A stretch of 64,000 nt of DNA from Sphagnum compactum. Taxonomy: Eukaryota. Made by a program: the position numbers and the translations under genes. Below are positions 4,316 through 56,300 of the stretch, piece after piece; position 1 is the stretch's first letter, and each line of letters opens with the position of its first letter. A model generated the notes under the pieces. The model was not told the origin of the DNA. It did no database searches and worked only from the letters and a program-made list of their open reading frames with translations. Location: assembly GCA_965153455.1 (NCBI GenBank), contig OZ234493.1, positions 29,192,213-29,256,212 on the forward strand, given 5' to 3'.

Positions 4316-4811
4316 TTCATGATAAATTTTGTTTCATGCTTTATGAGATGTAAAAGCCCATGGGTGGGGGACATTCCCAAAATGCAGGGCTGGACTCAGC
4401 TATTGCTCGTCCTAGGCCCTTTATCTTGAGGATGTCCTCAGCGTAGGGCTTTACCCTACACATTACATTCACCTTTTTTATTTTAAGTAGAACTTTTTTC
4501 GCCAAACATATAGAATGGGGCTTTAAATCTCAAGTTTGCATAGTGCTAGATCCCTTGGTTCATGATAAATTTTGTTTCATGCTTTGTGATATGTAAAAAG
4601 CCCATGGGTGGGTGACATTCCCAAAATGCAGGGCTGGACTCAGCTATTGCTCATCCTAGGCCCCTTATCTTGAGGATGTCCTCACCATTGGGCTTTACCC
4701 TGCACATAATGTTCACCTTTTTTTTTAAATAGAATTTTTTTGTCAAAAATATAGATGGGGGCTTTAAATCTCAAGTTTGCATAGTTGTCACTAATCAATG
4801 CTAGATCCCTT
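4316..4811. repeat. Tandem duplication, ~243-bp unit, 2 copies
   Basis: TTCATGATAAATTTTGTTTCATGCTTT...CATTCCCAAAATGCAGGGCTGGACTCAGCTATTGCTC starts at 4316 and again at 4559. Confidence 0.93.
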
Positions 4812-5309: not shown

Positions 5310-5400
5310 CTATGGGGGCCTTTCAGGTTTGAGATCCTGCTATGGGGACTTGGGATCTCAAATCAGGAAGGCCCCCATAGCAGGATCTCAAATCTAAAAG
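5310..5400. repeat. Head-to-head 30-bp units forming an inverted repeat
   Basis: TTTGAGATCCTGCTATGGGG (5328-5347) is the exact reverse complement of CCCCATAGCAGGATCTCAAA (5373-5392). 5311-5337 also pairs with 5353-5379. Confidence 0.85.
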
Positions 5401-5897: not shown

Positions 5898-6148
5898 TTT
5901 TTTGTGGCGAATTTTCGCCACTTGGCGACAAAGAAAAAGGGCTGGCGAATCTAACAAAGGAAATTTTGGGAATTGTTTTTTAAAATTCGCCATATTTTGA
6001 GGAAAAAAAGGCTAGAAGTCGCCAGATTTAGATAGTGTGTTACTATAGATCGTCAGAACAAGGCAGGATTCCAAAAAAACAATCTACTTGTTTACCACGA
6101 CAGTCGCCATTTACTGCTAATTAATGCTGAGGGAAAAAAAACCCTGAT
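5898..6148. repeat. Copy of an abundant dispersed repeat family (TTGGCGAC.../TAGCCAAATTTGGCT-type)
   Basis: Related decayed copies at ~10170-10390, 19760-20215, 26540-26800, 39920-40050, 40300-40500, 60265-60555 and 62685-62990 share modules such as TAGCCAAA(T/A)TTGGCTA, GTGGATGAT..CCAGT..GGCTACAT and TTTTGAGGAAA. Confidence 0.65.
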
Positions 6149-6169
6149 TTGTACCGTTGGCATGACATC

Positions 6170-6176
6170 TATAAAA
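6170..6176 (+). promoter_or_regulatory. Putative TATA box of the 6.5-kb membrane-protein gene
   Basis: TATAAAA lies ~300 bp upstream of the first in-frame ATG. A TGACGTCA palindrome lies further upstream (~5748-5755). Confidence 0.4.
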
Positions 6177-6477
6177 CAGCGAGTGTTCCTCCCAAGTCTA
6201 AAGCCTCCGGTTCCCTTCCTGCGTTGTCAGTTGACGATTTAGTCATTCTTGGTCGAATTAGAGGGAGGGGAGGTTTTCGTACATGAACCCGTTTTTGGAG
6301 TGGAGGAAGAGCATTGGCTACTGTGTACTCGCGTTCGTTTTCTAGCGGTTATTGTCGAGGGAACTCCCTGCAGCTGGGGCCTAGCCTTTTCTTCGCTTGT
6401 TTGAAGCCACGAAAGAACGCGGTTGGTGTGCGAGACGAATCACCAGTAAGCTATTGCGCTGCTTACGACTAGAGAAG

Positions 6478-7858
6478 ATGATTTGGCGTTGGGGCAAGTC
6501 CGGCGTGATCTCGAATCTGGAGTTGGGAATGCTCCTGATCCTGCAATGCGTCGTTCTGGTCAGCTTCCTGTCGACTACTGTGGCTTGGCATCATTCACGT
6601 CCTGCGCCGTCTGCGCCGTCGTCAGTTCCATCACCTCCATTCTGTTCGCCGTCTGCGCAGTCGCCAGTTCCGTCTCCTCCATTCTGTCCGCGTTCGGTGG
6701 TGACCACTATCGGGAGTGCGTTTCTCGCCTTAGCCAGCCTGATGATATATGCATGGGATCAGGGTTGGGCTACGGTAGCGTTTACAAAGCAGAATGATGC
6801 TCCTCCCTTTTGGAAATTTTGGAAAAAACGCAATTTCTGCTGGAGCCTGCGTTGGACCATTGTGTTAGCACTAAATCCAATAGTTTTCACATTTTATGTT
6901 CGTGACCCGCAAATTTCGCAATATCCTCAAAATGGCAGGCATGGAGGATGGCGGCCATACTTATAAGATAGCGAAAGACATTGCAGATAGCTGGGTCGCG
7001 GTAGGGGTTAAAAACCTTGACTCCATACCCAGAAGGTACAATCAAAATTGGAAGAATGCTAACCCGCAAGCTAACCCAGAAGCTGAACCGGACCCAGATC
7101 TTGTTTTGAACCTTGCAGGTACAGGTGACCCACGAAGCGATCGGCAGTGGCCCGACGCGAGCAGTTTTCATTTCTTTCTGTTAAATTACGATGGAATGCT
7201 GGCCTTATTACGTAGTAAAGCTCTTGCGCACGCTGATCGCGAACAATTGCGGTTTTTAGGCTCTAGAACAGGTCTAGAGGTCTTCATAATTGTTCTCCAA
7301 TCAATGAGCTACATCACAGCTGTTGTATATAGGCGTATACAGCATTTACATGTGGCTCCCATAGAAGCCATAGGTTTCACCGGTAGCCTGGTGTTTCTTG
7401 TCTACGCTTTGGTACAAAAATGTTTTGGAAGTTTAAGTAATGAAGGTCTTCTAATATACCTAACCCCTGCACAAGAACAAGCAATTAAGGATTTTGGGAA
7501 GGAAAACCCACTACCTCACTGGTATGGCGGTAAGGACCCTGATCGTCGGGCGTTCAAATGGACGAGTATAGTGGGTTCTCTGGTGATTGGAGTGGCAACA
7601 TGGCTGGTATACCCGGTGTTAAAATATAGGGTGGATTTGCTGGGGCACATCATCTTTTTTGGTGACTTTCTCCTCCAGTTCATTCTCTTGTGGGTGTACT
7701 TCAAACAGCGCTCCGGACTTGGTCCATTACTGATTCCTGCGATTATTACTGTAGCTGGCGTGGTCTTGGCCATTGTTGCTACAAGTCGGCATTGGCATGA
7801 TCAAAACTTTGACATCCCCACCCCTTCACTTGGTCGCTATTTGCCTTTCATTCATTAG
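6478..7858 (+). pseudogene. Intronless multi-pass membrane protein gene with signal peptide, interrupted by one frameshift (pseudogene or assembly error)
   Basis: ORF 6397-6966 (frame 1) and ORF 6896-7858 (frame 2) overlap. Deleting one T in TTTT at 6892-6895 fuses them into ...RWTIVLALNPIVFTFMFVTRKFRN... (~442 aa from ATG 6529, ~459 aa from ATG 6478). The product has an N-terminal hydrophobic signal (MLLILQCVVLVSFLSTTVA), a Pro/Ser repeat, then about seven hydrophobic segments. The region is GC/CpG-richer than its flanks. Confidence 0.75.
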
Positions 7859-10800
7859 TCTATTAGTTTGTTCATTCCTCTGTCACAAAGTACATTGAAC
7901 GTACATAGGTGTGATGAATCTTGGGTATCAATATCTGAAGGCAAATGTTATAAGGGCTGAAATAATTGTAATCCTTATAGCCATTCATTTTCTATGCAAA
8001 ATAAATATGTTACTAAACTTGTCAAATGATTTAATAGATGATTAAAACGATCCCTCAGCATAAAATGATGGTCAGGTTTTGATGGCAGGTGCTTACATTA
8101 GTGCCTTTTTGAAGTCAGTGAGAATGTGTGCATCTGAGTGAGAACAGGGTAATTGTTAGTAAAATCATTTTTTATGTAGCAGTAAATATTTCAGGGAGTC
8201 CTGATAAATTTCTTTTATTTTGTTGTGTATCGAAATGACAATGTATCAATGCATCATATTTCATCGTGCACTATGTCATGATGCATCATGTTATATGATC
8301 AACATAAAGCCTAAAGCACATATTTATTGTGTTAAGAAAGGTGAGGAAAATGTCAAAATGATTGCATGCAAAAAGCTTTATAAATTAACATCTAAATGTT
8401 TGTAAATATTATATTATAATTATTAATGTATTAGAAATATCAATTTATTAAAATTTGAAAATACATGAATAAGATATTATCATATTTCCAAGTTTATGGG
8501 TAAGGTAAATACCTGTGAGAAAAGAAAAGAAATTTAAAAATCGTAACCCCTTTTCTCTCCCTAAATTTTCACTTATAACCTCACTGCAACCCGACCCAAC
8601 TTTTTTTTTAAAATTACACGCAGACCTATAACCTCCTATAACCTTATCCATTCAGCCAACTTTTGATTCTCCAACCTCTATACCCACTCAAAAGATGTTC
8701 CGACAATCCCTCTCTAGGACAGAGCCAATAAAATTTCCTTACTTTGCAAATACCAGTAAAAGAGAGGTTAGGAGGTGAAAGGAGGCCCAAAGGCAGGGTG
8801 AAGACAGGGTGACTTTACGGTTATGTCTATTGTCTTGAGAAGTTGAGAAGGGGGCCGGCCTCCCACAGTATAGAAGTTACTGTTGACAATTTAGGAAAAT
8901 TTAGGTAGAGAATTGTCATGAAAATGCACTGGGGAAAAAAAACCGACAGCACTTTAAGGGTGGTTATTCGCCTCCAGGTTAGATTGATTGGTTCATTTGT
9001 AGTATACATATTATAAGAAAATATTTACTAGTTTCTGAAAATTTATTTTGTTCATTTGTTTGCCTCCATTTACACAGATTGTCAAGTTCTCATTTTTCTG
9101 CCTTTGGAGCATGAACACCTTTCGACCTAAAGTGATCTCTAATGATCTTGCCTTTCCATGTCTTGAAGTTGGGCAAATTTTCAACCTTAGAAATGAAAAA
9201 AGGGAATATTATATTGAAAATTCCCAATTTCAAAGAAAAAATGCATTTGCTTTGGTAGTTGTTCCATTGTATAAAAATAATGCTACAATTGTAATCTTCA
9301 CCTTCACAAAGAGATACAACACAAACATTCAATTTGATAACTTCTTGAGCTGAAATAATTCTAATATTTTCCTTCAAAGAATCAAAAGTTGTAACACAAA
9401 GGTTGAGTGTTGGCTGCTTGAGAAAAATCCTAACCCTACCTAGAAGACACCATTAGGAATATGCACGAGGTTTTGCCCAACATCCTAAATTGATATTAGG
9501 CATGGTTTTGTAAGGTTGTGGGTACATAGGTGGGGGTACCTACTTGTATTTTTTATTTATCTAGGTATGAAGGGGTACATGCTTTTGAAATCTTTGCATT
9601 TGACTATTACTCATATACCCAGGTCAATACTCACCCAACATTGGTTTGCACTCCTAGATTATTTTCTTGGTATTTCAAAGCATCTGCTTGCATAGAAAAT
9701 GCCTTTGTCAATTAAAGGACCTTCCACCATTCAAGTAAAAAACCTTTCATACTTTACATTGGGGAAGGTTTCCTATGGAATCCCCTTAATTTTGGGCCTA
9801 ACACCCTCAAGCTACTATCTCATATTATGGGAGGCCATGGGGAGGCACATGCCTTCCTCTAGACATAGTCCTCTATACATGTATGGCTCCAATGCTCCAT
9901 ATGATGTTTCTTTAATGTATTATGGAATGGTCAAGCCCTTGCCCATCATGGGTAAGGCTCTGATGAGCCCACTAAGGCCAGAGCAATTAATCAATGCACC
10001 CAACATAATGGGCAAAGGTGAGACCATTCCATGACAATAAGGTCGAGAGTGGCAGATCAACGATTCTAAAAATCCCCATGTTCCACAGATATTTTGCAAA
10101 CATAATTGAATCACTATCCTCAAAGCCCTTTACATGACACTATACAGTACCATTTTGGCACTGGCAGCGGTTTTTTTTAATGGAAAGAAAACATTGAATT
10201 CAAGAAATCGCGTGATTTGTTTTTTAAAAATTAAGTTCCAGGCAGGTAGCAAACAATATAGAATATTGATGCATAAAAAAATTTAACTTTTTTTTTTGGG
10301 GTGGGTTATAGCCCAAATTTGGCTAAATATGGCTAGATGAATGCCATGACTTCAGCTACTACAACACAAATTTATTAAAGAAAAAAGCCTTGGGCACTGC
10401 CTCAAAAAGCCTCTCATGACACACTAGAATGAACACAGCAGCTTTTTGTTAAGAAGGCCATTACTACTTACATTCAGTTTAACTTATTGTGGTTGTCTAT
10501 TGGCAATGGAACTGGAGGAGAGATATGAGGAGACTATGGAATGATGTAGTTCTCATTTGGTCTCACATTTTGAGAATGTTTTCGTGGTTTCATCATACTC
10601 CCTGATTGGATTTGGCAACAAACTGTCGACTAATTAATTAATATTTTAAATCTTAGCTTGGGCACTTGGTTTTTCAATTCTAATTTTTTTGGCAGAAAAT
10701 GGTTATAAAAAATTAATAAATACAATCTTGTTATATTTATGGAACAATCTAATAAGTGTGTTAGACCATCTCAATCAATCTTAAGTTCAAACCTGACAAT

Positions 10801-34292: not shown

Positions 34293-37200
34293 TTACAAGC
34301 TATGGGTGTTAGCCAATCGTGCAACCCGGCGACTCTGCAAGCTCCTACTCCTTTTCAACTCTCTGCGCCTTCGCCTAGCTTCTGTAGCTGCAGCTGCTGC
34401 TCCAGATAGTCCAGGAGCTGTCACACAGTTTGCTTTAAAAGACACACCTATGCCACCAAATGATGAAAAGACACTTGGATTCACCAACTTAGACATGTGT
34501 GGCATCTGCCCAGCAGGCAGGTAGGAAGAAGTATCACCTGGATGCAATGATGAGGAAGCCCTCGGCCTACCTTCTACTTTAAAGCTTGGCTGCACCATGC
34601 CTGTAAGAGGCAAGGATTGATGGAATGCAGAATCTAATGTTTTCCTGCCTACTTGAAGCTTGGATTGCCCAATCTGTTCTTCTGACTTCACTATGCCATC
34701 CTCCAATGGTGAGCACAAAATGTGCTTCCCTCCATTATTCAGACCCATGCCAGTTTTACATCTCTTGGTCGCTCCATCAATTGTTGTGTCAGATTTTTGC
34801 AAAAAACTAGAAGGCTGAGAAGTTGATCGTGCCACAGGCATGGCTTCTGAGAGAGCAGGGACATTGAGATGCTGACCAAAATATGAAGAGCCAGATAAAT
34901 TTGCTGCAAAAGGCAACACAGAAGACATAGCTGCCCTCCGTACATCCTGGCTGATTCCAGCATTCAGTGCTGCAGTTGCTGCCATGGTAGCCGTAGCAGC
35001 CACTGAACTGTAATCTGATCCAAACCCCCTGTCAACTCTTGCTGATGAAGCTTGACTGACAGCTGCAACTTGGGCCAATGCAAAGGCCCACCAAAATTGT
35101 GGCAGGGGCAGTCTTGTGTATGGTGCAACTGGCATCATTGGTACTACAGAACCTGGCCTAGTTGAAGATGGTGACTCCTTCATGCCATTAGCAGCAAGCA
35201 GAGAAGCCTGCACAGCACAGTTATTGGTCTCAGCACAATCTCCAACACACCAGGCGGCATTAATCTCATGCTCAAGAGAGAGAAGTCAAAAGCCTCATGT
35301 ATAAGAGAGAGAGGTTTGATTGGAACACGACTGCACACAGATGTCCCACCTGCTCTTTGAGACGATGGTTCACTTCCAGTAGAGCTTTGTACTCTGCAGT
35401 CTGCAACTCCAGTTTCTGCATACATATTTAAGAACTGCATGCTTAACAAGTCCTCAAGGAGTATCCAGCTTCAAAGAACCTGAACTAAAAATGCAGTTAT
35501 AAACCAAAAAATCAACTTCAACCAAATGCTGCATCCCACCTTCTTCAAGTCTTCCTTTTCTGATGAGAGACTTGTTGCCTTCTGAACCAACTGCTCACAC
35601 AGCATCTACAAGAGCCCAGCAACTGCTCAGAGATGTCTCATTGAAGAGGCAAACAGAAAAATGAGAAATATAAAGTATGAGAATGACAGTGAGCAGAATA
35701 GACATAACTAACTCAAGAATCATTTGCACATTGGTTTACAGGGAAGCACAATCGCTCCCCACAGGTCCTACAAAATGTGAACACAGCCTTCTGCACTATT
35801 TCTGTCAGTGAGTTGAGACCCTAGCTCAGCAGGTTTCATCTTCTATCTTGATCTCAAAGACTCATTGATCTACAGCATAGAACATTCACCAAGGTGTACC
35901 TCATAACCGTAATAATTACCTGCTTTCTTCTAATGGTTTGCCTTGCAGATTCCCTATTTGCTTGCACTCGGCGAAGTCTTCGGGCCTCCTTTTCCTCCTG
36001 ATCTCAAGCAATGACAGAGTTGTGCTAATCATTTGTAACAGAAGCTTCATAACCTGTCTAATCTGATTTTCAGTCTCAAGCACTCCATAAGTCCACATGT
36101 TCTCAATATTTTGCTATCCTAGAATAAGAGCAAAATAAAGCGCTCAAAGACCTGTTCACCAAGCAATAGAGGGTTACATACAAGCATTACCTCACTCATA
36201 GCAGGCTTCAGTTTCCCTGGAACAAATGCACCTGACCTCTGCCTTTGCCTGCTCTCCAGCTTCACTGGAAAAACTTCAGCTTTGACTGCTTCATTCAAGT
36301 TAATGAGTTTAGACCCGATTTGCATTCCTGGATGTCCATACACTTCACCTCCATGAACATTTGGCAAGACCCCCAATGAGGGAATGAGTTGTAAGCCAAC
36401 ATCCTCAGTCTTCACCTGGACAGATGGCGTATCATGTTGTGGAGGTCTTGGCTTTCTTTGAATGTCTAACTTTGGAGCAACTGCCACAGGTGTCAACTCT
36501 GCAATGTTCTCCTCGACCTGAAACAAGAGGAAAAAAAAGTGAACAATTGTGAATCATCAGCACCGCAGAACATGCATCAACTTCTGCAGCAAACAAGCTC
36601 AATAACCCTAGAAGTCAACACCCCCATTGAGAGAGACAAGCTCCTGCACCTTCGGTTTGTGGAGAACAGAAAGCGTCTTGATAGGTGGCATTGCTGTGAC
36701 CTGCTGAAATGCAGAGCATGCAACAATGGTCCCCTTTTCTAACTTTGGGAGCAGGGTGGCATCTGATTTCAAAGCAGGTAATGGAGAGCTTGGACTCTCA
36801 GCACGTGAGTTGGGCTGCATTGACTCAAGGCTGGATTCTGAACTGGGCTTGTGCAGCCTGAAATCACTATCCAGGTCCATGCCCACACCTGCAGTCACTC
36901 CACTTCTTTCCTCCATCACAGTATCCTCTTCCTGTTTTGTCAAGTCATTGCCTGTCTGAATGACCTCACTACCAGGGGTGTAAGATGTCGGGAAGAGATC
37001 CAAAACAGGTGGCTTTTCAGAACATCTTGTTGAACTGTCACTCGGCTTGTCTGCACACTCTGGCTTCCTGCTTCTGCTGGATCTCTGCCTCTTCTGTGTC
37101 CAGTGCACAACATTCTTAACAGACATTACTACTGCTGCTGCTGGAATTGGAGAAGGCACCCCACCAAACAACGCATAAAGAGCCTGGGCAGCATTGAAAG

Positions 37201-37522
37201 CCTGTTCTGCATCTAGCTCAGGTGTGACTTCCTCCTCAGACACAAGTCTGGTGCTCTTTTGTTTCCTAGGACACGCTTTTATGACAACTTCATCTTTGCT
37301 TCTCACTGATTTCAATGGCACGAACCTCTCCAGACTCCTGTGTGACCAGCTAGGTTCTGGTTCAGCTAAACCTCTTTTCCTTTTCACCAGGTGGTTATGC
37401 TCTCTGTCCTTGCTTCTTCTGTTATACAGTTCCTGGTCTTCATCAGGCACAATCTCAACTGCAGTTACAGGTCCTGTTGGTGCAGGTTCCTCCTTCATTT
37501 TTGCTGCACGCTCTTCAGACAT
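34293..37522 (-). CDS. bZIP62: bZIP transcription factor, group J / AtbZIP62-like, ~757 aa
   Basis: Minus-strand coding exons 37522-36701, 36517-36191, 35997-35920, 35605-35540, 35415-35350 and 35207-34293 are all GT-AG and phase 0. Basic region EEKEARRLRRVQANRESARQTIRRKQ, zipper MLCEQLVQKATSLSSEKEDLKKKLELQTAEYKALLEVNHRLKEQ, and C-terminal AAAATEARRRRREL motif. The first-exon donor and the start codon are the least certain parts. Confidence 0.9.
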
Positions 37523-37526
37523 CAAT

Positions 37527-39286
37527 CTGAAGCACATGATCACGAGAGAAGATTTATAAAAAGACATCAATGTTCAGAGAGGGTGACAACCTTCATCTCC
37601 TCACAGGAACCTCTTTGAGGATGCAACTTAGCAAAGATACATGACTAGGGGGCAAAAGTGGAAGAAAATGCAACAAAGCAGATGATGCATTATAATCTCT
37701 ACCGCAAGTCTTGAGAAAATTTACGAGATTGGTGCTGGGCCTGTACCTTGCAACGCTAGGTGTAGTCAAAAGCCCGTGCTATCTCGTTGAAGTTGCCCCT
37801 GAGATTCCGACGTCGCCTAGAGAATGGAATCCTTTGCGGACACTGCAATTCATGTCTCGAAAACGCAAGGAGAAGACGCGGCTATGCAGACAATCGGCGA
37901 ATGACAAGTGAAGATATAATAGGCGCGCCCTGCACAACATACAGAGAACCGGCGTGATCTATGAATTGCCCTGGCAGGATGAAGACCCTAGCGTAGTAGA
38001 ACAACGGCGAAAGAACAGAGAAACTCCGGATCTGGGTAGCAGGCATATACACAGTGAGAGAGAGAGGGAGGGCCGAGGAACTCTGTCTGTAGCGACAAGT
38101 CGGCGAAGGGGAAAAACGAAGCAACTGCGCAACGCGTTTCAAAAGTCTGACCAGAAAATGCAAGGCCGACAAATGAAACCCCCGTCTTCTAAGCTTCTCA
38201 ACTCCCGGGTTTCGAAAGCCAGTTTCGAGGTTCCGAACAAATTCAGTTTCGAGATTCGCAAACACAAATGGATGCCAAATTGACCAACGACCAAAGCAGG
38301 AAAAAAACACACAGACACAGGAAAAACAAGCAGCAGCAGCAACGGCTGCACAGAAACAAGTCCGAATCTAAAACAAACGACGACGAAGAAAGGAACACAA
38401 AAGTTCCAGATCCAGCAACCACTGACTAAAAAGGCAAGGCGAGGCAAGGCGCTTCAATAGATGGCGAAAAACCAGAAGAACAACAAACCTGCGGGAGCCT
38501 TCTACCTCGTAGTCTGTCACAAAGCGACCGCACAATAATGGTCAAAATCAGAGATACAGCAGCATCAAGCTCCCTTGCGTGTTCGTCCCTCGTTCATTCG
38601 TTCGCGTTCTCGCCCTCCTTGGAAACCGCCCTGGTCTTCCTCGGCTACTCCTCCTCTCCCTCCTCCGCCTCTCTATTCCACTTGCAGAACCCAAAAGCAA
38701 GCAACAAACAGTCTACAGAGGTCAAAACGAGGGGTGAAAAAACCCGGAAAACCACAAAATTGATAACACAGCAGAGAGAAGAAGCACTCCAACGGCAGAA
38801 GCAGAAAACGGCACTTGCAGGAAATTCAAGGGAGACGATGATAGCGTGCAAAGACAACACGAGAAAACCCAGAAAAACGCGACAACGTCTTGCGCGAGAA
38901 AGAGAGATAGAGACAGAGACACACAGACGGAGACGGAGAGAGACAGAAGAGAGAAAGAGAGAGAAACGCAACAACACACAAGTGGAGCGAAAGCCTGGCC
39001 AAGCTTGCGTGGCAGGATCGAACGGACCATATCTGTCCGTCTCCCAACTTGAACGCTCCCGATCTCCCAAGGACCCCCTCAAAACTGACCCAGACCTACT
39101 TTTTTACCTCCACACGCTTTCTAATCCTCCCTGGTGTGTACCTACTTTACGTGCTTACTGGCCAATAGGAAAGTTCCAATCCTCCAGCTGGACCATCTTT
39201 GTACCCACTGACCCCTCTTTTTGGGGGGCGCGGGGGGGGGTAAATTTCCAGTCTGCCATTTTTACACACCTCCCCTGCCTCCCCTC

Positions 39287-53320: not shown

Positions 53321-56300
53321 ATGGTACCGTCTTCTTCCTTTCTCCTTCTTCCAGAGGTTTTGGCACCGGGCTCTACTCGATGCCTGAGAAGCTGCTGCTG
53401 CTGGGTTGTGAATCCAAGGAGCAGTAGTAGACAAGAGCTTAGGATATGCTCAAGACTCGGGGGTGGTTGTTGGGTGCTTAAACGGCAGCTCAAGTGTCAG
53501 GGGTTTGTGGACCAAGAAGCGTCATCGTCGTCGGTAGCTTGTCGCGCTTTCCAAGAAGATGATGATGATGATGATGATGCTTCTAGTAGGTGCCGTGGGC
53601 ATGGACGAGAAGTTCATAGACTGCCGGTGTTGCTCCATGAGCGAGGCAGGAAGTTGCAGTATGTATACTCTGGACAGCGGATGTGGACGATCGACCCACA
53701 AGATGAGTCTCACTATAGCAAGGATGGCCGGTTCCAAGGTGGTCCCGGAGACTGGCTCCGTGAGTGCTCAGAAAAGATGGGCAGAGCTTTGCGGAGAAGC
53801 TTTGTGCCTGACCAAGTGCGACCCCACTACCTCTTATACCTCAAGTGGACAATGATCCACCGCTTCTTGAGCTCCATCAACCATGTCCACTGTACTCAGG
53901 TACTTCTTAGGTTCCCCCCCTCTCTGCCTCCTATTCTCAGGATTTTTGGTCGACTTTCGGTCTTCTACTGTCTTGTTGTCAAGATCCAATTGTTGATCCT
54001 GAACCAGCTTGTTTTCTTTCCTTTGTATAATTTGATCTTTACCAGGAGTTCCAAATTTGCTGAGATGCCTACTTGATGTGTTCTGCTATGGTAGGCAATG
54101 TTGCATGCCCTTGGTGTTGGGGGAAAGCGTGGATTACCATCTGCAGCTGCCTTGAATTGGGTGCTAAAGGATGGTCTTGGTCGTCTTGGTAGACTTATCT
54201 ATGCTGCTGGACTTGGCCGCACTTTTGACTGCAATCTCAAGGTCTGTAATTCCTTCAGTTGGGTGCTTTTCATGCACATCCCATTCTCAAGTTACTTGTT
54301 GTCCTTGTATTTTTCAAGTTCTATCTCACCTTACATTCCAAACCTGCTTTCCCTTTTCCTCCTGTCTTTTTATCTTTCAAGGCCCTACAACTATGATGTC
54401 AATATTCACAGGTCTTCTGTTGCTTGGAAGCAGAGAGTACGTTTTTCAACATCAGTGCTGTTCTGTGTGAGTCTGGGGCTTGAGATGCTGACGCCTGTTT
54501 TTCCTCATCATTTTCTGTTTCTAGCAACACTCGCCAACGTGGGCAAGTCAATAAGTCTGGCTGCCTACCTTGCCACAAGTGTGAGCATCCCTCCTCCTCT
54601 TCCCTCCTTTTTGGCCATGCTTCATATTCCAAACACGTTTTTCATGGCAGACCAAAGACTTCTATATTCATTTCTTCATGTCCTGCATGAAATCTTCAGT
54701 CTTGCCATCACAATTAATAGGAGAGGCTTTGAGCATCAAACACAGTGGTTTGTCACTAGGTTGGAGTGTATGCACTCACTTATTGTGCATGGTGGGGTGG
54801 TTGATAGTCAGCTATACACAGAAGCTTTGCTTTGGGAGATAACCTGGCGGACATATCTGCTAAAGGCCAGGTTAGCTTAGATCACTATGCCATATTAGAA
54901 ATGGAAAATTCAGAGCATAGAATTGGTCTTCAGTGGTGTAAATGTAAGGAATTAGCTCATCTTCAGAGTTACAAGCTTGTGGCATGCGTGGGTGAAACTG
55001 GTTTGTCCCAGGAAAAAAGGGACAGAGGAATCTACACCAAGAACTAACTGATTTGGACCATGTGAACTATCTTTATTGATGTAAGAGGTAAAATGGCAGG
55101 ATGCAGTGTTCACCTTGGTGTGGGTTTTGCAGGCACAGACGGTGGTTGCAGATAACCTTGGGCTAGCTGTTGCAGTTTGCATAAACTGTTTCTGTCACTA
55201 TCACCCAAGGTGTGATATTTTACCAAGTTCTGCTGTTGATAAAAATAGGCGATTTTGTAATCTTGTGCACATGCATCTCTCGATTCTTATGAGTGATATA
55301 TTTGTTCTTCAGCATTTAGAGTCTCTACAGCTAGACTTTCTGACAGTATCTGTCTGGATTGGTGGCAGATTAGGAAGAATTCTCCCTTTGGCAATGTTTC
55401 CAGTGCTGGCTCTGGTGGAACTCTTTGCTATCCGCCAACAACTTCAGGCTGTGCACTTGCAAACTCTAAACAAGGTCAACTTTCTTCTACAATCCAGTTT
55501 TATATTAAGGGTGCAGCAGTGATCAAGCAACTAATGTAAAGCATTCAGCAAATCACTTTTCTGTAGCTTGCTAGTCTACATTGCTGGGAATTAACCGACT
55601 CTCGTCAGTAAGTGCAGGAAAGGCTGGAAATTATTGTTAATCAGTGGGTGAGAGACAGTACAGTGCCAACTTTTGAAGATGTCAGCAAGGTTGAATGTGC
55701 AGGCCTTCTGTCACCTTACAGTGGTAACAACATTTCTCTTTCTTTCTTCTTCAACTGGCTGTTACCTCAGGGTGGCTTTTGAACCACGGATCAAGCTGGG
55801 AAGGATTTTTTTGGAGCTATGCAATGTGTCAAGCTACTGACAATCTAACACCTCTTTTCAGAATGTGCTAGACTTTGCTCATGCAGAACATATGCAGAAC
55901 ATGACTAGGGGTTCATTGGGAGCTTACAGATGCATTGTGGAGATGGTGCCAGGTGGCATAAGGCAGTTGCCCCTGCGAATAGGCGCCATTCCTTTGCAAT
56001 CCTGGACACCAGAAGAGCTCATGAGCACCATGAGCATGCATGACTCTCAGCGCTATGTTCTTTTGACTGAAACTTCTTTTTCATTCCCTTGGCTTGGTAA
56101 TTCGAGTGTCAGTCAGGTAGTTATACCTTTGTTGTATGGCACCCTTGTTTCTGTATCAACCAAGCTTATGTTTGTTGCTATGAGTATTCAGCTATGATTG
56201 CCAAGCTCTTATAAAAGTTTGCCCTAGGTTGCCTTGCAAATGTGATAGTCACTCCTCACTTTGCCCTCTGTTCTCTGTGCTTTTACAGCCAGGGTTGCTT

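What the first reader, a model, noticed from the sequence alone, without database searches (positions are those of the whole stretch)
6478..7858. Intronless membrane-protein gene resembling an uncharacterised fungal family: candidate fungus-to-moss HGT
Seen: no introns (all three neighbouring genes have 6-11 exons), elevated GC/CpG, a signal peptide and about seven hydrophobic segments. Motifs run C-P-RSVVTTIGSAFLAL, RWTIVLALNP and EQLRFLGSRTGLEVFIIVLQSMSYITAVVYRRIQHLHVAPIEA. Recollection: these parallel, in order, an expanded family of hypothetical fungal membrane proteins (C..RTLWxIIWSC, KWMLIALIAPE, EIxDxSKGDxLxKxxxVLQxxWFxxQxxxRxxQxLxITxLE). I recognise no seed-plant equivalent. Inference: a horizontally acquired surface protein, possibly involved in plant-microbe interaction.
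Basis: partly seen in the sequence, partly recalled or inferred. Interest (0 to 1): 0.72.

Follow-up and report, generated by a model that had tools for sequence, protein, structure and literature searches.

The report
Broken moss copy, fungal-like membrane family
This is a recently broken peat-moss copy of a fast-evolving, unstudied membrane-protein family found in mosses, a liverwort and ferns and distantly related to a large fungal family, so any gene transfer from fungi is ancient rather than moss-specific.

Summary
The gene is real, intronless and part of the moss genome, but this copy is broken. It lacks 14 nt at 6901/6902, and contigs of two other samples confirm this. It is one of at least 22 family loci in this Sphagnum-type genome, 10 of them intact. 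Named relatives come from Sphagnum, Ceratodon, Marchantia, Adiantum and Pteridium, and the tree splits ferns from bryophytes as the species tree does. The recalled fungal family exists and is a remote homologue. One of 145 profile hits among 1.84 billion proteins was fungal. The profile-profile match has E=4e-5 over 212 colinear columns, both families share a Q-x10-R-x10-E triad, and their models have the same order of elements. No plant-fungal pair reaches BLASTP E<1, so BLAST-based HGT screens would miss the link. Seven tandem paralogues show strong diversifying selection (about 10% of codons, omega about 9) on helix faces near TM1 and TM6-TM7. Best reading: an ancient, probably fungal-derived family of polytopic membrane proteins evolving by birth and death, most likely in non-self sensing or defence. 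The direction of transfer and the function are inferred, not shown. A recent fungus-to-moss transfer is not supported.

The parts
6478..6966 (+). Frame A, 162 aa. The first 141 codons are family sequence (N-terminal leader, Ser/Pro linker, C-x-R, TM1, first part of the kinked second helix). Out-of-frame codons follow, then a stop.
6529..6585 (+). Hydrophobic, signal-peptide-like segment starting at the second Met, where four intact relatives are called to start
   Evidence: hydropathy; P0002, P0005, P0011, P0013; cleavage not tested
6605..6691 (+). 42-nt tandem repeat (2.1 copies) encoding the Ser/Pro-rich linker; longer in P0016
6685..6756 (+). C-x-R motif and TM1; aligns with the fungal CRTL..IV.SC..TIFAC.W segment
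6895..6902 (+). Frameshift: 14 nt missing between 6901 and 6902 relative to L026, where the missing stretch lies between two TGTTC copies (microhomology-type deletion, inferred)
   Evidence: contigs X4 6808-7626 and X7 6732-7475 span it with 0 differences and 0 gaps
6902..7858 (+). Frame B: rest of the family protein with no further lesion (soluble alpha/beta insert, TM3-TM7, conserved tail)
7298..7366 (+). Q-x10-R-x10-E triad (Q 7298, R 7331, E 7364) in TM3 and the TM3-TM4 turn; invariant columns of both the plant and the fungal alignment
7553..7855 (+). TM5-TM7 and C-terminal W...FD.PT......P.I tail
6108..7916 (+). Low-depth, one-strand polyA RNA coverage (0.6-5.7x; none in bin 6711-6911), consistent with sense transcription of an allele in another individual
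   Evidence: run X22, about 12% of the run read; one library only

Best explanation
SHOWN: the locus is a recently frameshifted copy of an intronless multigene family of about 420-480 aa membrane proteins. The layout is a leader, a Ser/Pro linker, TM1, a kinked second helix, a soluble alpha/beta insert, TM3-TM7 and a conserved tail. The family is in mosses, a liverwort and ferns, duplicates and decays quickly, and its intact tandem copies diversify under positive selection. WELL SUPPORTED (about 0.9): it is a remote sister of an expanded family of hypothetical fungal membrane proteins. INFERRED, origin (about 0.55): one fungus-to-plant transfer at or before the last common ancestor of bryophytes and vascular plants, followed by vertical descent and apparent loss or extreme divergence in seed plants. 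INFERRED, mechanism (about 0.45): intact members are secretory-pathway or plasma-membrane proteins of non-self surveillance. In this model a conserved polar core (Q in TM3, R and E at the TM3-TM4 turn, packed against C-x-R and the tail) forms a gated site or pore. A hypervariable helical surface (end of TM1, second helix, TM6-TM7) sets specificity or is the target of microbial factors, and the soluble insert, probably cytosolic, couples this to an output. This copy can make only a 162-aa stub, or a leaderless product by re-initiation, and is most likely a null allele or young pseudogene.
For: Lesion real and single. At least 22 loci in the genome, 10 with one uninterrupted frame from Met to tail; 11 lie within 0.5 Mb on C2, 7 of them intact. 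Taxa. Tree (quick, SH-aLRT): bryophytes 95, mosses 84, main fern group 94; 3 label changes against 15.1 shuffled. Fungal link: P0148 at E=2.7e-5 among 1.84 billion proteins. A plant HMM gives 12 of 106 fungal proteins E<1 (best 38 bits), against 5 bits at most for reversed controls. hhalign score 46.9, E=4.3e-5, 212 colinear columns, against 13-19 for reversed or column-shuffled controls and at most 37.6 for 30 block-shuffled controls. Q-x10-R-x10-E in 63 of 63 plant and 117 of 120 fungal sequences. Two confident models (pLDDT 83 and 85) with the same order of helices and strands. Atlas feature search: 30 hits, the three shown at 0.94 being fungal hypothetical clusters (recognition value under the tool's bar, so weak). 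Selection: M2a vs M1a 2dlnL=203, omega2 9.5 on 10% of codons (own code, whose M0 likelihood equals IQ-TREE's); 137 after removing gap-proximal columns. Selected columns cluster at 75-113 and 375-408 with i+3/i+4 spacing. TM6-TM7 is also the least conserved stretch in fungi. Fungal copies also cluster: 13 of 120 listed hits have near-consecutive Athelia locus tags.
Against: hhalign probability is only 69% and covers TM1-TM4 only. The reciprocal search, fungal HMM against plant proteins, gave 0 of 45 with E<1. No pairwise BLASTP reaches E<1 at nr scale (63 x 121 sequences). The fungal W.x.HGFF..MGG motif has no clear plant counterpart. The two models were compared only by element order, not superposed. 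Plant and fungal groups are joined by a 2.6-substitution branch, and only Agaricomycetes were sampled, so nesting and direction are untested. Five unnamed divergent members (P0098, P0100, P0147, P0138, P0292) could be algal, hornwort, lycophyte or seed plant. Segment trees differ, so gene conversion may inflate the selection test, and relaxed constraint contributes (overall omega about 1.1-1.2). Charge bias does not settle the topology, since the TM3-TM4 loop is also basic. There are no functional data.
Confidence: 0.45

Rival explanations
1. An ancient eukaryotic family inherited vertically, with relatives in algae, seed plants and protists lost or diverged beyond detection; no HGT.
For: Plant-fungal divergence is very deep. 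The family evolves fast, and fern members score only about 37-85 bits against the Sphagnum profile, so seed-plant or algal members could fall below threshold.
Against: Of 145 hits only one is non-plant by profile, and it is fungal. None of the 14 organism-named proteins among 30 looked up is algal, seed-plant, animal or protist. This reading needs many independent losses.
Confidence: 0.25
2. Same origin, but the proteins are solute channels, transporters or membrane-embedded enzymes (for example for lipids or secondary metabolites). Paralogue divergence then reflects substrate range and relaxed selection, not non-self recognition.
For: Invariant polar residues within and at the edge of the membrane (Q, R, E) are typical of transport or catalytic sites (general knowledge). 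One Marchantia locus was seen, which suits a housekeeping role.
Against: Omega of about 9 at about 10% of codons and frequent gene death (12 of 22 loci not intact) fit arms-race genes better. No Pfam transporter or enzyme family reached its cut-off.
Confidence: 0.3
3. Transfer went from early plants to fungi, or both received the gene from a third lineage.
For: The tree is unrooted with respect to direction.
Against: The fungal family spans Ascomycota and Basidiomycota in several Atlas clusters of 50 or more members, which implies a Dikarya-wide age at least comparable to land plants (inference from recalled dates).
Confidence: 0.1
4. The plant-fungal likeness is convergence among helical membrane proteins.
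For: Scores are weak, and block-shuffled controls reach 37.6 against 46.9. Those controls keep the best local block intact.
Against: The match is colinear across TM and soluble parts, the triad spacing is exact, and reversed controls of the same composition score at background.
Confidence: 0.07
5. Recent fungus-to-moss transfer of this gene, or contamination or mis-assembly.
For: Intronless and rich in GC and CpG relative to the flanks.
Against: Fern and liverwort members exist; there are 22 loci on six contigs; the window lies at 29.2 Mb of contig C1; independent contigs overlap gene and flanks; L026 shares gene and 3' flank at 81-88% identity; a fungal query finds no credible match in this genome.
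Confidence: 0.03

Closest known systems
Expanded family of hypothetical Dikarya membrane proteins (e.g. Fibroporia FIBRA_01501, Athelia HWV62_30713; the Atlas assigns the aligned part of one Ascomycota cluster to Pfam PF29556)
   Same: Order of elements, C-x-R before TM1, Pro-kinked second helix, L....L..G.L.P...L before TM3, Q-x10-R-x10-E, R...L.[VI][ST]..E turn, W...P[HF] tail, many clustered paralogues, variable TM6-TM7 loop.
   Different: About 15% identity, below BLAST detection. Fungal W.x.HGFF..MGG, SKGD and FG..H..AW motifs are not kept in plants. TM5-TM7 do not align by profile. No function is attached to either family in what I could search.
Fungal-derived genes of seed-free land plants: FB lectin/FBT and KP4 (passages of PMC12513842); macro2 (search listing of PMC7181705); HET-domain regions (recalled; Sun et al. 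2020 seen only as a reference line)
   Same: Shared by fungi and seed-free plants, few introns, lineage-specific expansion, suspected biotic roles.
   Different: As I recall them, those are soluble proteins with recognised domains, detectable by BLAST. This is a polytopic membrane family with no Pfam match in the held release and no BLASTP-level fungal hit.
Plant and fungal immune or allorecognition gene clusters (NLRs, RLKs, fungal het loci; recalled)
   Same: Tandem arrays, birth and death, positive selection concentrated on one surface.
   Different: No NB-ARC/NACHT, LRR, kinase, HET or HeLo domain was found. The likeness is in evolutionary pattern only.
7TM proteins (GPCRs, MLO, microbial rhodopsins)
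   Same: About seven hydrophobic helices and a probably external N-terminus.
   Different: No profile match; a roughly 100-residue soluble alpha/beta insert between helices 2 and 3; helix 2 is kinked and possibly re-entrant.

Membership tests
Fungal hypothetical TM family (P0148/P0195 type) | Colinear profile-profile match above controls | tested here: met
   E=4.3e-5, 212 columns, probability 69%; all 52 controls lower
Fungal hypothetical TM family (P0148/P0195 type) | Q-x10-R-x10-E triad | tested here: met
   63 of 63 plant and 117 of 120 fungal sequences; window Q7298, R7331, E7364
Fungal hypothetical TM family (P0148/P0195 type) | Significant score against the fungal family HMM, and the fungal-specific motifs (HGFF..MGG, SKGD, L.PEW) | tested here: not met
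   0 of 45 plant proteins with E<1; motifs not matched. The HMM was built from Agaricomycetes only. Hence a sister family, not a member.
Fungal hypothetical TM family (P0148/P0195 type) | Same three-dimensional fold | tested here: inconclusive
   Same order of secondary-structure elements in two confident models; coordinates not available for superposition
Pfam PF29556 | Match to the curated HMM | not testable with these tools
   Model not in the held Pfam copy
Fungus-to-plant HGT | Integrated in the plant genome, not contamination | tested here: met
Fungus-to-plant HGT | Recipient nested within the donor clade | tested here: inconclusive
   Two groups joined by one long branch; only Agaricomycetes sampled
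Fungus-to-plant HGT | Absent from algal sisters and other eukaryotes | tested here: inconclusive
   None named among 14 named of 30 looked up; 16 unnamed; one profile search only
Fungus-to-plant HGT | Donor hit at BLASTP E<=1e-5 (the screen used in PMC12513842) | tested here: not met
   0 pairs with E<1 among 63 x 121 at nr scale; criterion read
Moss-specific acquisition | Restricted to mosses | tested here: not met
   Marchantia, Adiantum and Pteridium members
Known 7TM receptors, channels or transporters | Pfam or NCBIfam profile match at the curated cut-off | tested here: not met
Known 7TM receptors, channels or transporters | Structural match to a solved member | tested here: inconclusive
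   see Tried and rejected
Young pseudogene or null allele | Disabling lesion present in DNA while relatives are intact | tested here: met
   intact relatives
Young pseudogene or null allele | Lesion fixed in the species | tested here: inconclusive
   Seen in two further samples of one study; RNA run X22 of another study has no reads over the site, and its three listed SNPs are synonymous

The most novel reading that the evidence does not exclude
An undescribed cross-kingdom class of membrane non-self sensors or gated pores, expanded into large clusters in mushroom-forming fungi. It was captured from fungi by the first land plants, kept and diversified under arms-race selection in mosses, liverworts and ferns, and lost in seed plants. 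It would be an unrecognised arm of seed-free plant immunity that BLAST-based HGT screens cannot see.
Probability: 0.25. Interest if true: 0.85.

Novelty: new variant of a known kind. Interest (0 to 1): 0.57.

Why it matters
Fungus-to-plant transfers into early land plants are a known class, but a large screen of them starts from BLASTP hits (PMC12513842, HGT methods section). This family falls below that threshold, so such inventories may miss old, fast-evolving membrane proteins. The family is also testable: it has a Marchantia locus for genetics, a conserved three-residue core to mutate, and a mapped hypervariable surface. A function found in either kingdom would annotate hundreds of hypothetical fungal genes and a seed-free-plant family at once. 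The window copy itself matters mainly as a pointer, because it is broken.

Tried and rejected
Profile libraries: Pfam gave no hit at a curated cut-off for the two window frames, 16 members of A1 or 17 diverse members. NCBIfam gave 0 of 7. PDB sequences gave a best E of 0.39 for A1 and nothing at E<=1 for A3.

Fold searches: Foldseek found no match at E<=0.001 in the PDB for either model or in BFVD for the plant model. VIA-align best Z was 7.1 (rmsd 3.0, 92 aligned) and 8.2 (rmsd 4.6, 99 aligned), both to a BAR domain, which is background for helical bundles. Both models list HRD1 membrane domains at Z 6.2-7.0 (rmsd 4.4-5.1, 152-158 aligned), tied with unrelated rows and not accepted. The models exceed 400 residues and single domains were not folded alone, so this does not show the fold is new.

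Homodimer prediction for P0002 residues 50-445 gave no answer (score 0.09, alignment not used).

Prokaryote and virus relatives of the fungal alignment: 0 of 36 and 0 of 9 pattern matches were confirmed; sensitivity is low. A fungal query against this genome gave one match at E=0.27 with four stops, rejected. A word search with the non-Sphagnum alignment A4 returned only 4 proteins because candidates were capped at 8000.

Automatic names for fungal members ('Wax synthase domain', 'TRP C-terminal domain') had no Pfam support in the one fungal protein scanned (P0148) and were not used. An intron rescuing the frame: no joint was listed within the gene in X22, at low depth. Hi-C run X21 had no depth over the gene or over several other unique bins, so it is uninformative. 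The careful tree did not finish; the quick tree is used. Regional selection tests used regions chosen after seeing the data and are descriptive only.

Literature: five locus ids gave 0 papers; six topic searches listed nothing that describes this family, judged from titles and abstract starts. Supplement searches found no id in 1 held file of PMC12513842 or 3 files of PMC11906373 (one further file unreadable). The HGT lists of PMC12513842 (Supplementary Data 8-11) appear not to be in the one short file held, so a listing there is not excluded. Earlier scan notes: nothing.

Full report
Observation. The region has two overlapping open frames on the + strand: frame A from the ATG at 6478 to a stop at 6964-6966 (162 aa) and frame B open from 6884 to 7858. 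GC is 0.479 and CpG o/e 0.82, above most 2-kb bins of the window, but four intact paralogues show the same. The closest proteins are from Sphagnum species or unnamed: 23 hits, 21 of them at 43-77% identity. The 382-Mb genome fits a peat moss. Intact relatives are single ORFs, most of 440-460 aa, colinear with frames A and B, so the gene has no intron in its coding part. The exon counts of the neighbours were not verified; only a split RUS-family gene at about 53-55 kb was recognised.

The break. Against the homologous locus L026 the window lacks 14 nt between 6901 and 6902. In L026 that stretch lies between two TGTTC copies, which suggests a microhomology deletion. Contigs from two other samples of one study span the site with no difference and no gap (X4 6808-7626, X7 6732-7475), so it is not an assembly error. 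No other lesion is seen, so it is young. One polyA library from another study has low one-strand coverage over most of the gene and none in bin 6711-6911. Its three listed SNPs in the gene are synonymous (64 further differences were not shown). Whether the lesion is fixed is open. The gene is linked to moss flanks by overlapping contigs and by L026, which shares gene and 3' flank at 81-88% identity.

The plant family. Two protein searches of the genome give at least 22 loci on six contigs (my count after merging split matches). Ten have one open frame from Met to the conserved tail; the rest have stops, frameshifts or truncations. Eleven lie in 0.5 Mb of C2, and seven of these are intact. A profile of 16 Sphagnum-type sequences found 145 proteins among 1.84 billion representatives. 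I looked up 30 proteins, 29 from that list and one. Fourteen carry an organism: Ceratodon 5, Marchantia 1, Adiantum 5, Pteridium 2 and Fibroporia 1. None is a seed plant or alga, but 16 are unnamed. In a quick ML tree of 53 proteins, mosses (SH-aLRT 84) group with the liverwort (95) apart from the main fern group (94). One fern row and four unnamed rows are unplaced or on long branches. The simplest reading is vertical descent since the bryophyte-tracheophyte split. The window gene belongs to a Sphagnum subfamily on a long stem.

The fungal link. Exactly 1 of the 145 hits is closer to the fungal profile (P0148, E=2.7e-5, a tandem double). Atlas clusters place the family in Ascomycota too. A plant-only HMM scores 12 of 106 fungal proteins at E<1 (best 38 bits), while reversed controls reach 5 bits. 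The reciprocal test gives 0 of 45. Profile against profile gives probability 69%, E=4.3e-5 and 212 colinear columns from C-x-R to TM4, above 2 reversed, 20 column-shuffled and 30 block-shuffled controls. The only three invariant columns of the 63-sequence plant alignment (Q258, R269, E280) have the same spacing as invariant fungal Q249, R260, E271. Independent AlphaFold2 models (pLDDT 83 and 85) show the same order of elements: TM1, Pro-kinked long helix, soluble alpha/beta insert, TM3, TM4, strand, helix, TM5-TM7 and tail. I could not superpose them. No pairwise BLASTP reaches E<1 at nr scale, though the 15 best pairs all fall in the same homologous region. I call the two remote sister families (about 0.9), not one family.

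Selection. Seven intact C2 paralogues have overall dN/dS of 1.05-1.2. A site model implemented here, whose M0 likelihood equals IQ-TREE's, strongly prefers a positively selected class: 2dlnL 203, omega 9.5, 10% of codons. The value is 137 with gap-proximal columns removed. Of 31 columns with posterior over 0.9, 25 lie at 75-113 (after TM1 and in helix 2) or 375-408 (TM6-TM7), with helical periodicity. The TM6-TM7 loop is also the least conserved part of the fungal alignment. The window copy against L026 gives dN/dS 1.2-1.4. Caveats: seven sequences, chosen for being intact; segment trees differ, so gene conversion is likely; empirical Bayes only.

How it likely works. Inferred: the leader, the Ser/Pro linker and Cys put the N-terminus outside the cell. 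Basic residues on both sides of helix 2 and after TM4 suggest helix 2 is re-entrant and the insert cytosolic, though the charge test is not clean. In that layout C-x-R, the R...P.E turn and the tail meet on the outer side around a buried Gln, and the selected residues line one helical surface on the inner side and in the bilayer. A conserved polar core, a hypervariable face, clustering and frequent gene death in both kingdoms fit a non-self sensor or gated pore best (about 0.45). A transporter or membrane enzyme is the main rival (about 0.3). Nothing functional was shown.

Origin and prior knowledge. Presence in Dikarya and seed-free land plants, with nothing named elsewhere, favours an early fungus-to-plant transfer (about 0.55) over vertical descent with losses (about 0.25) or the reverse direction (about 0.1). 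The tree cannot give direction. [quoted passage not shown] From PMC12448838 I read passages, which count about 20 well-supported fungus-to-plant events. For PMC11906373 I saw the listing and a supplement search only. Seven literature searches showed no description of this family. Supplementary HGT tables that I could not see may list it, and a newer Pfam entry (PF29556) appears to cover the fungal side.

Verdict. The locus is a broken copy. The family behind it is an uncharacterised, strongly diversifying membrane-protein family of seed-free plants with a credible remote fungal sister. Interest 0.57; new variant of a known kind.

Noticed in passing
window 5315-5400: Near-perfect inverted repeat upstream of the gene, resembling a small non-autonomous element; seen by eye.
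   Followed up: no
window 4320-4800: A unit of about 245 bp occurs twice head to tail; reads show the 4500-4700 part is a high-copy repeat.
   Followed up: no
window 6385-6477 and L026 169-420: The frame upstream of the ATG stays open and similar in L026 (open from position 169), and P0016 and P0020 start 12 codons earlier. There may be an N-terminal extension or a conserved leader; RNA coverage starts near 6108.
   Followed up: partly
L017 2394-3503 (G000 C2 about 26.551 Mb): A long ORF that looks like a DDE/hAT-type transposase (recalled resemblance, not tested) lies beside a broken family copy in the C2 cluster.
   Followed up: no
P0009, P0004, P0003: Database members of the window's subfamily are called from a Met after the second helix, as if lacking the N-terminal third. 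This could be gene-caller choice or recurrent N-terminal lesions.
   Followed up: no
P0017, P0019 (L026 463-2031), P0021: Some subfamily members carry Gln/Gly-rich or Pro-rich repeat insertions in the soluble loops.
   Followed up: no
window 6711-6911: RNA depth in X22 falls from about 4x to exactly 0 over the stretch homologous to the hypervariable TM1-helix 2 region. This could be chance at low depth or a strongly divergent allele.
   Followed up: partly
window 34296-37573 (-) and 53321-55519 (+): Two neighbouring genes: long exons on the minus strand without a Pfam hit, and a split RUS/UVB_sens_prot gene.
   Followed up: partly
P0100, P0147, P0292, P0138, P0098: Divergent unnamed members outside or at the edge of the fern and bryophyte groups; candidates for hornwort, lycophyte, gymnosperm or algal origin and the key to dating the family.
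   Followed up: partly
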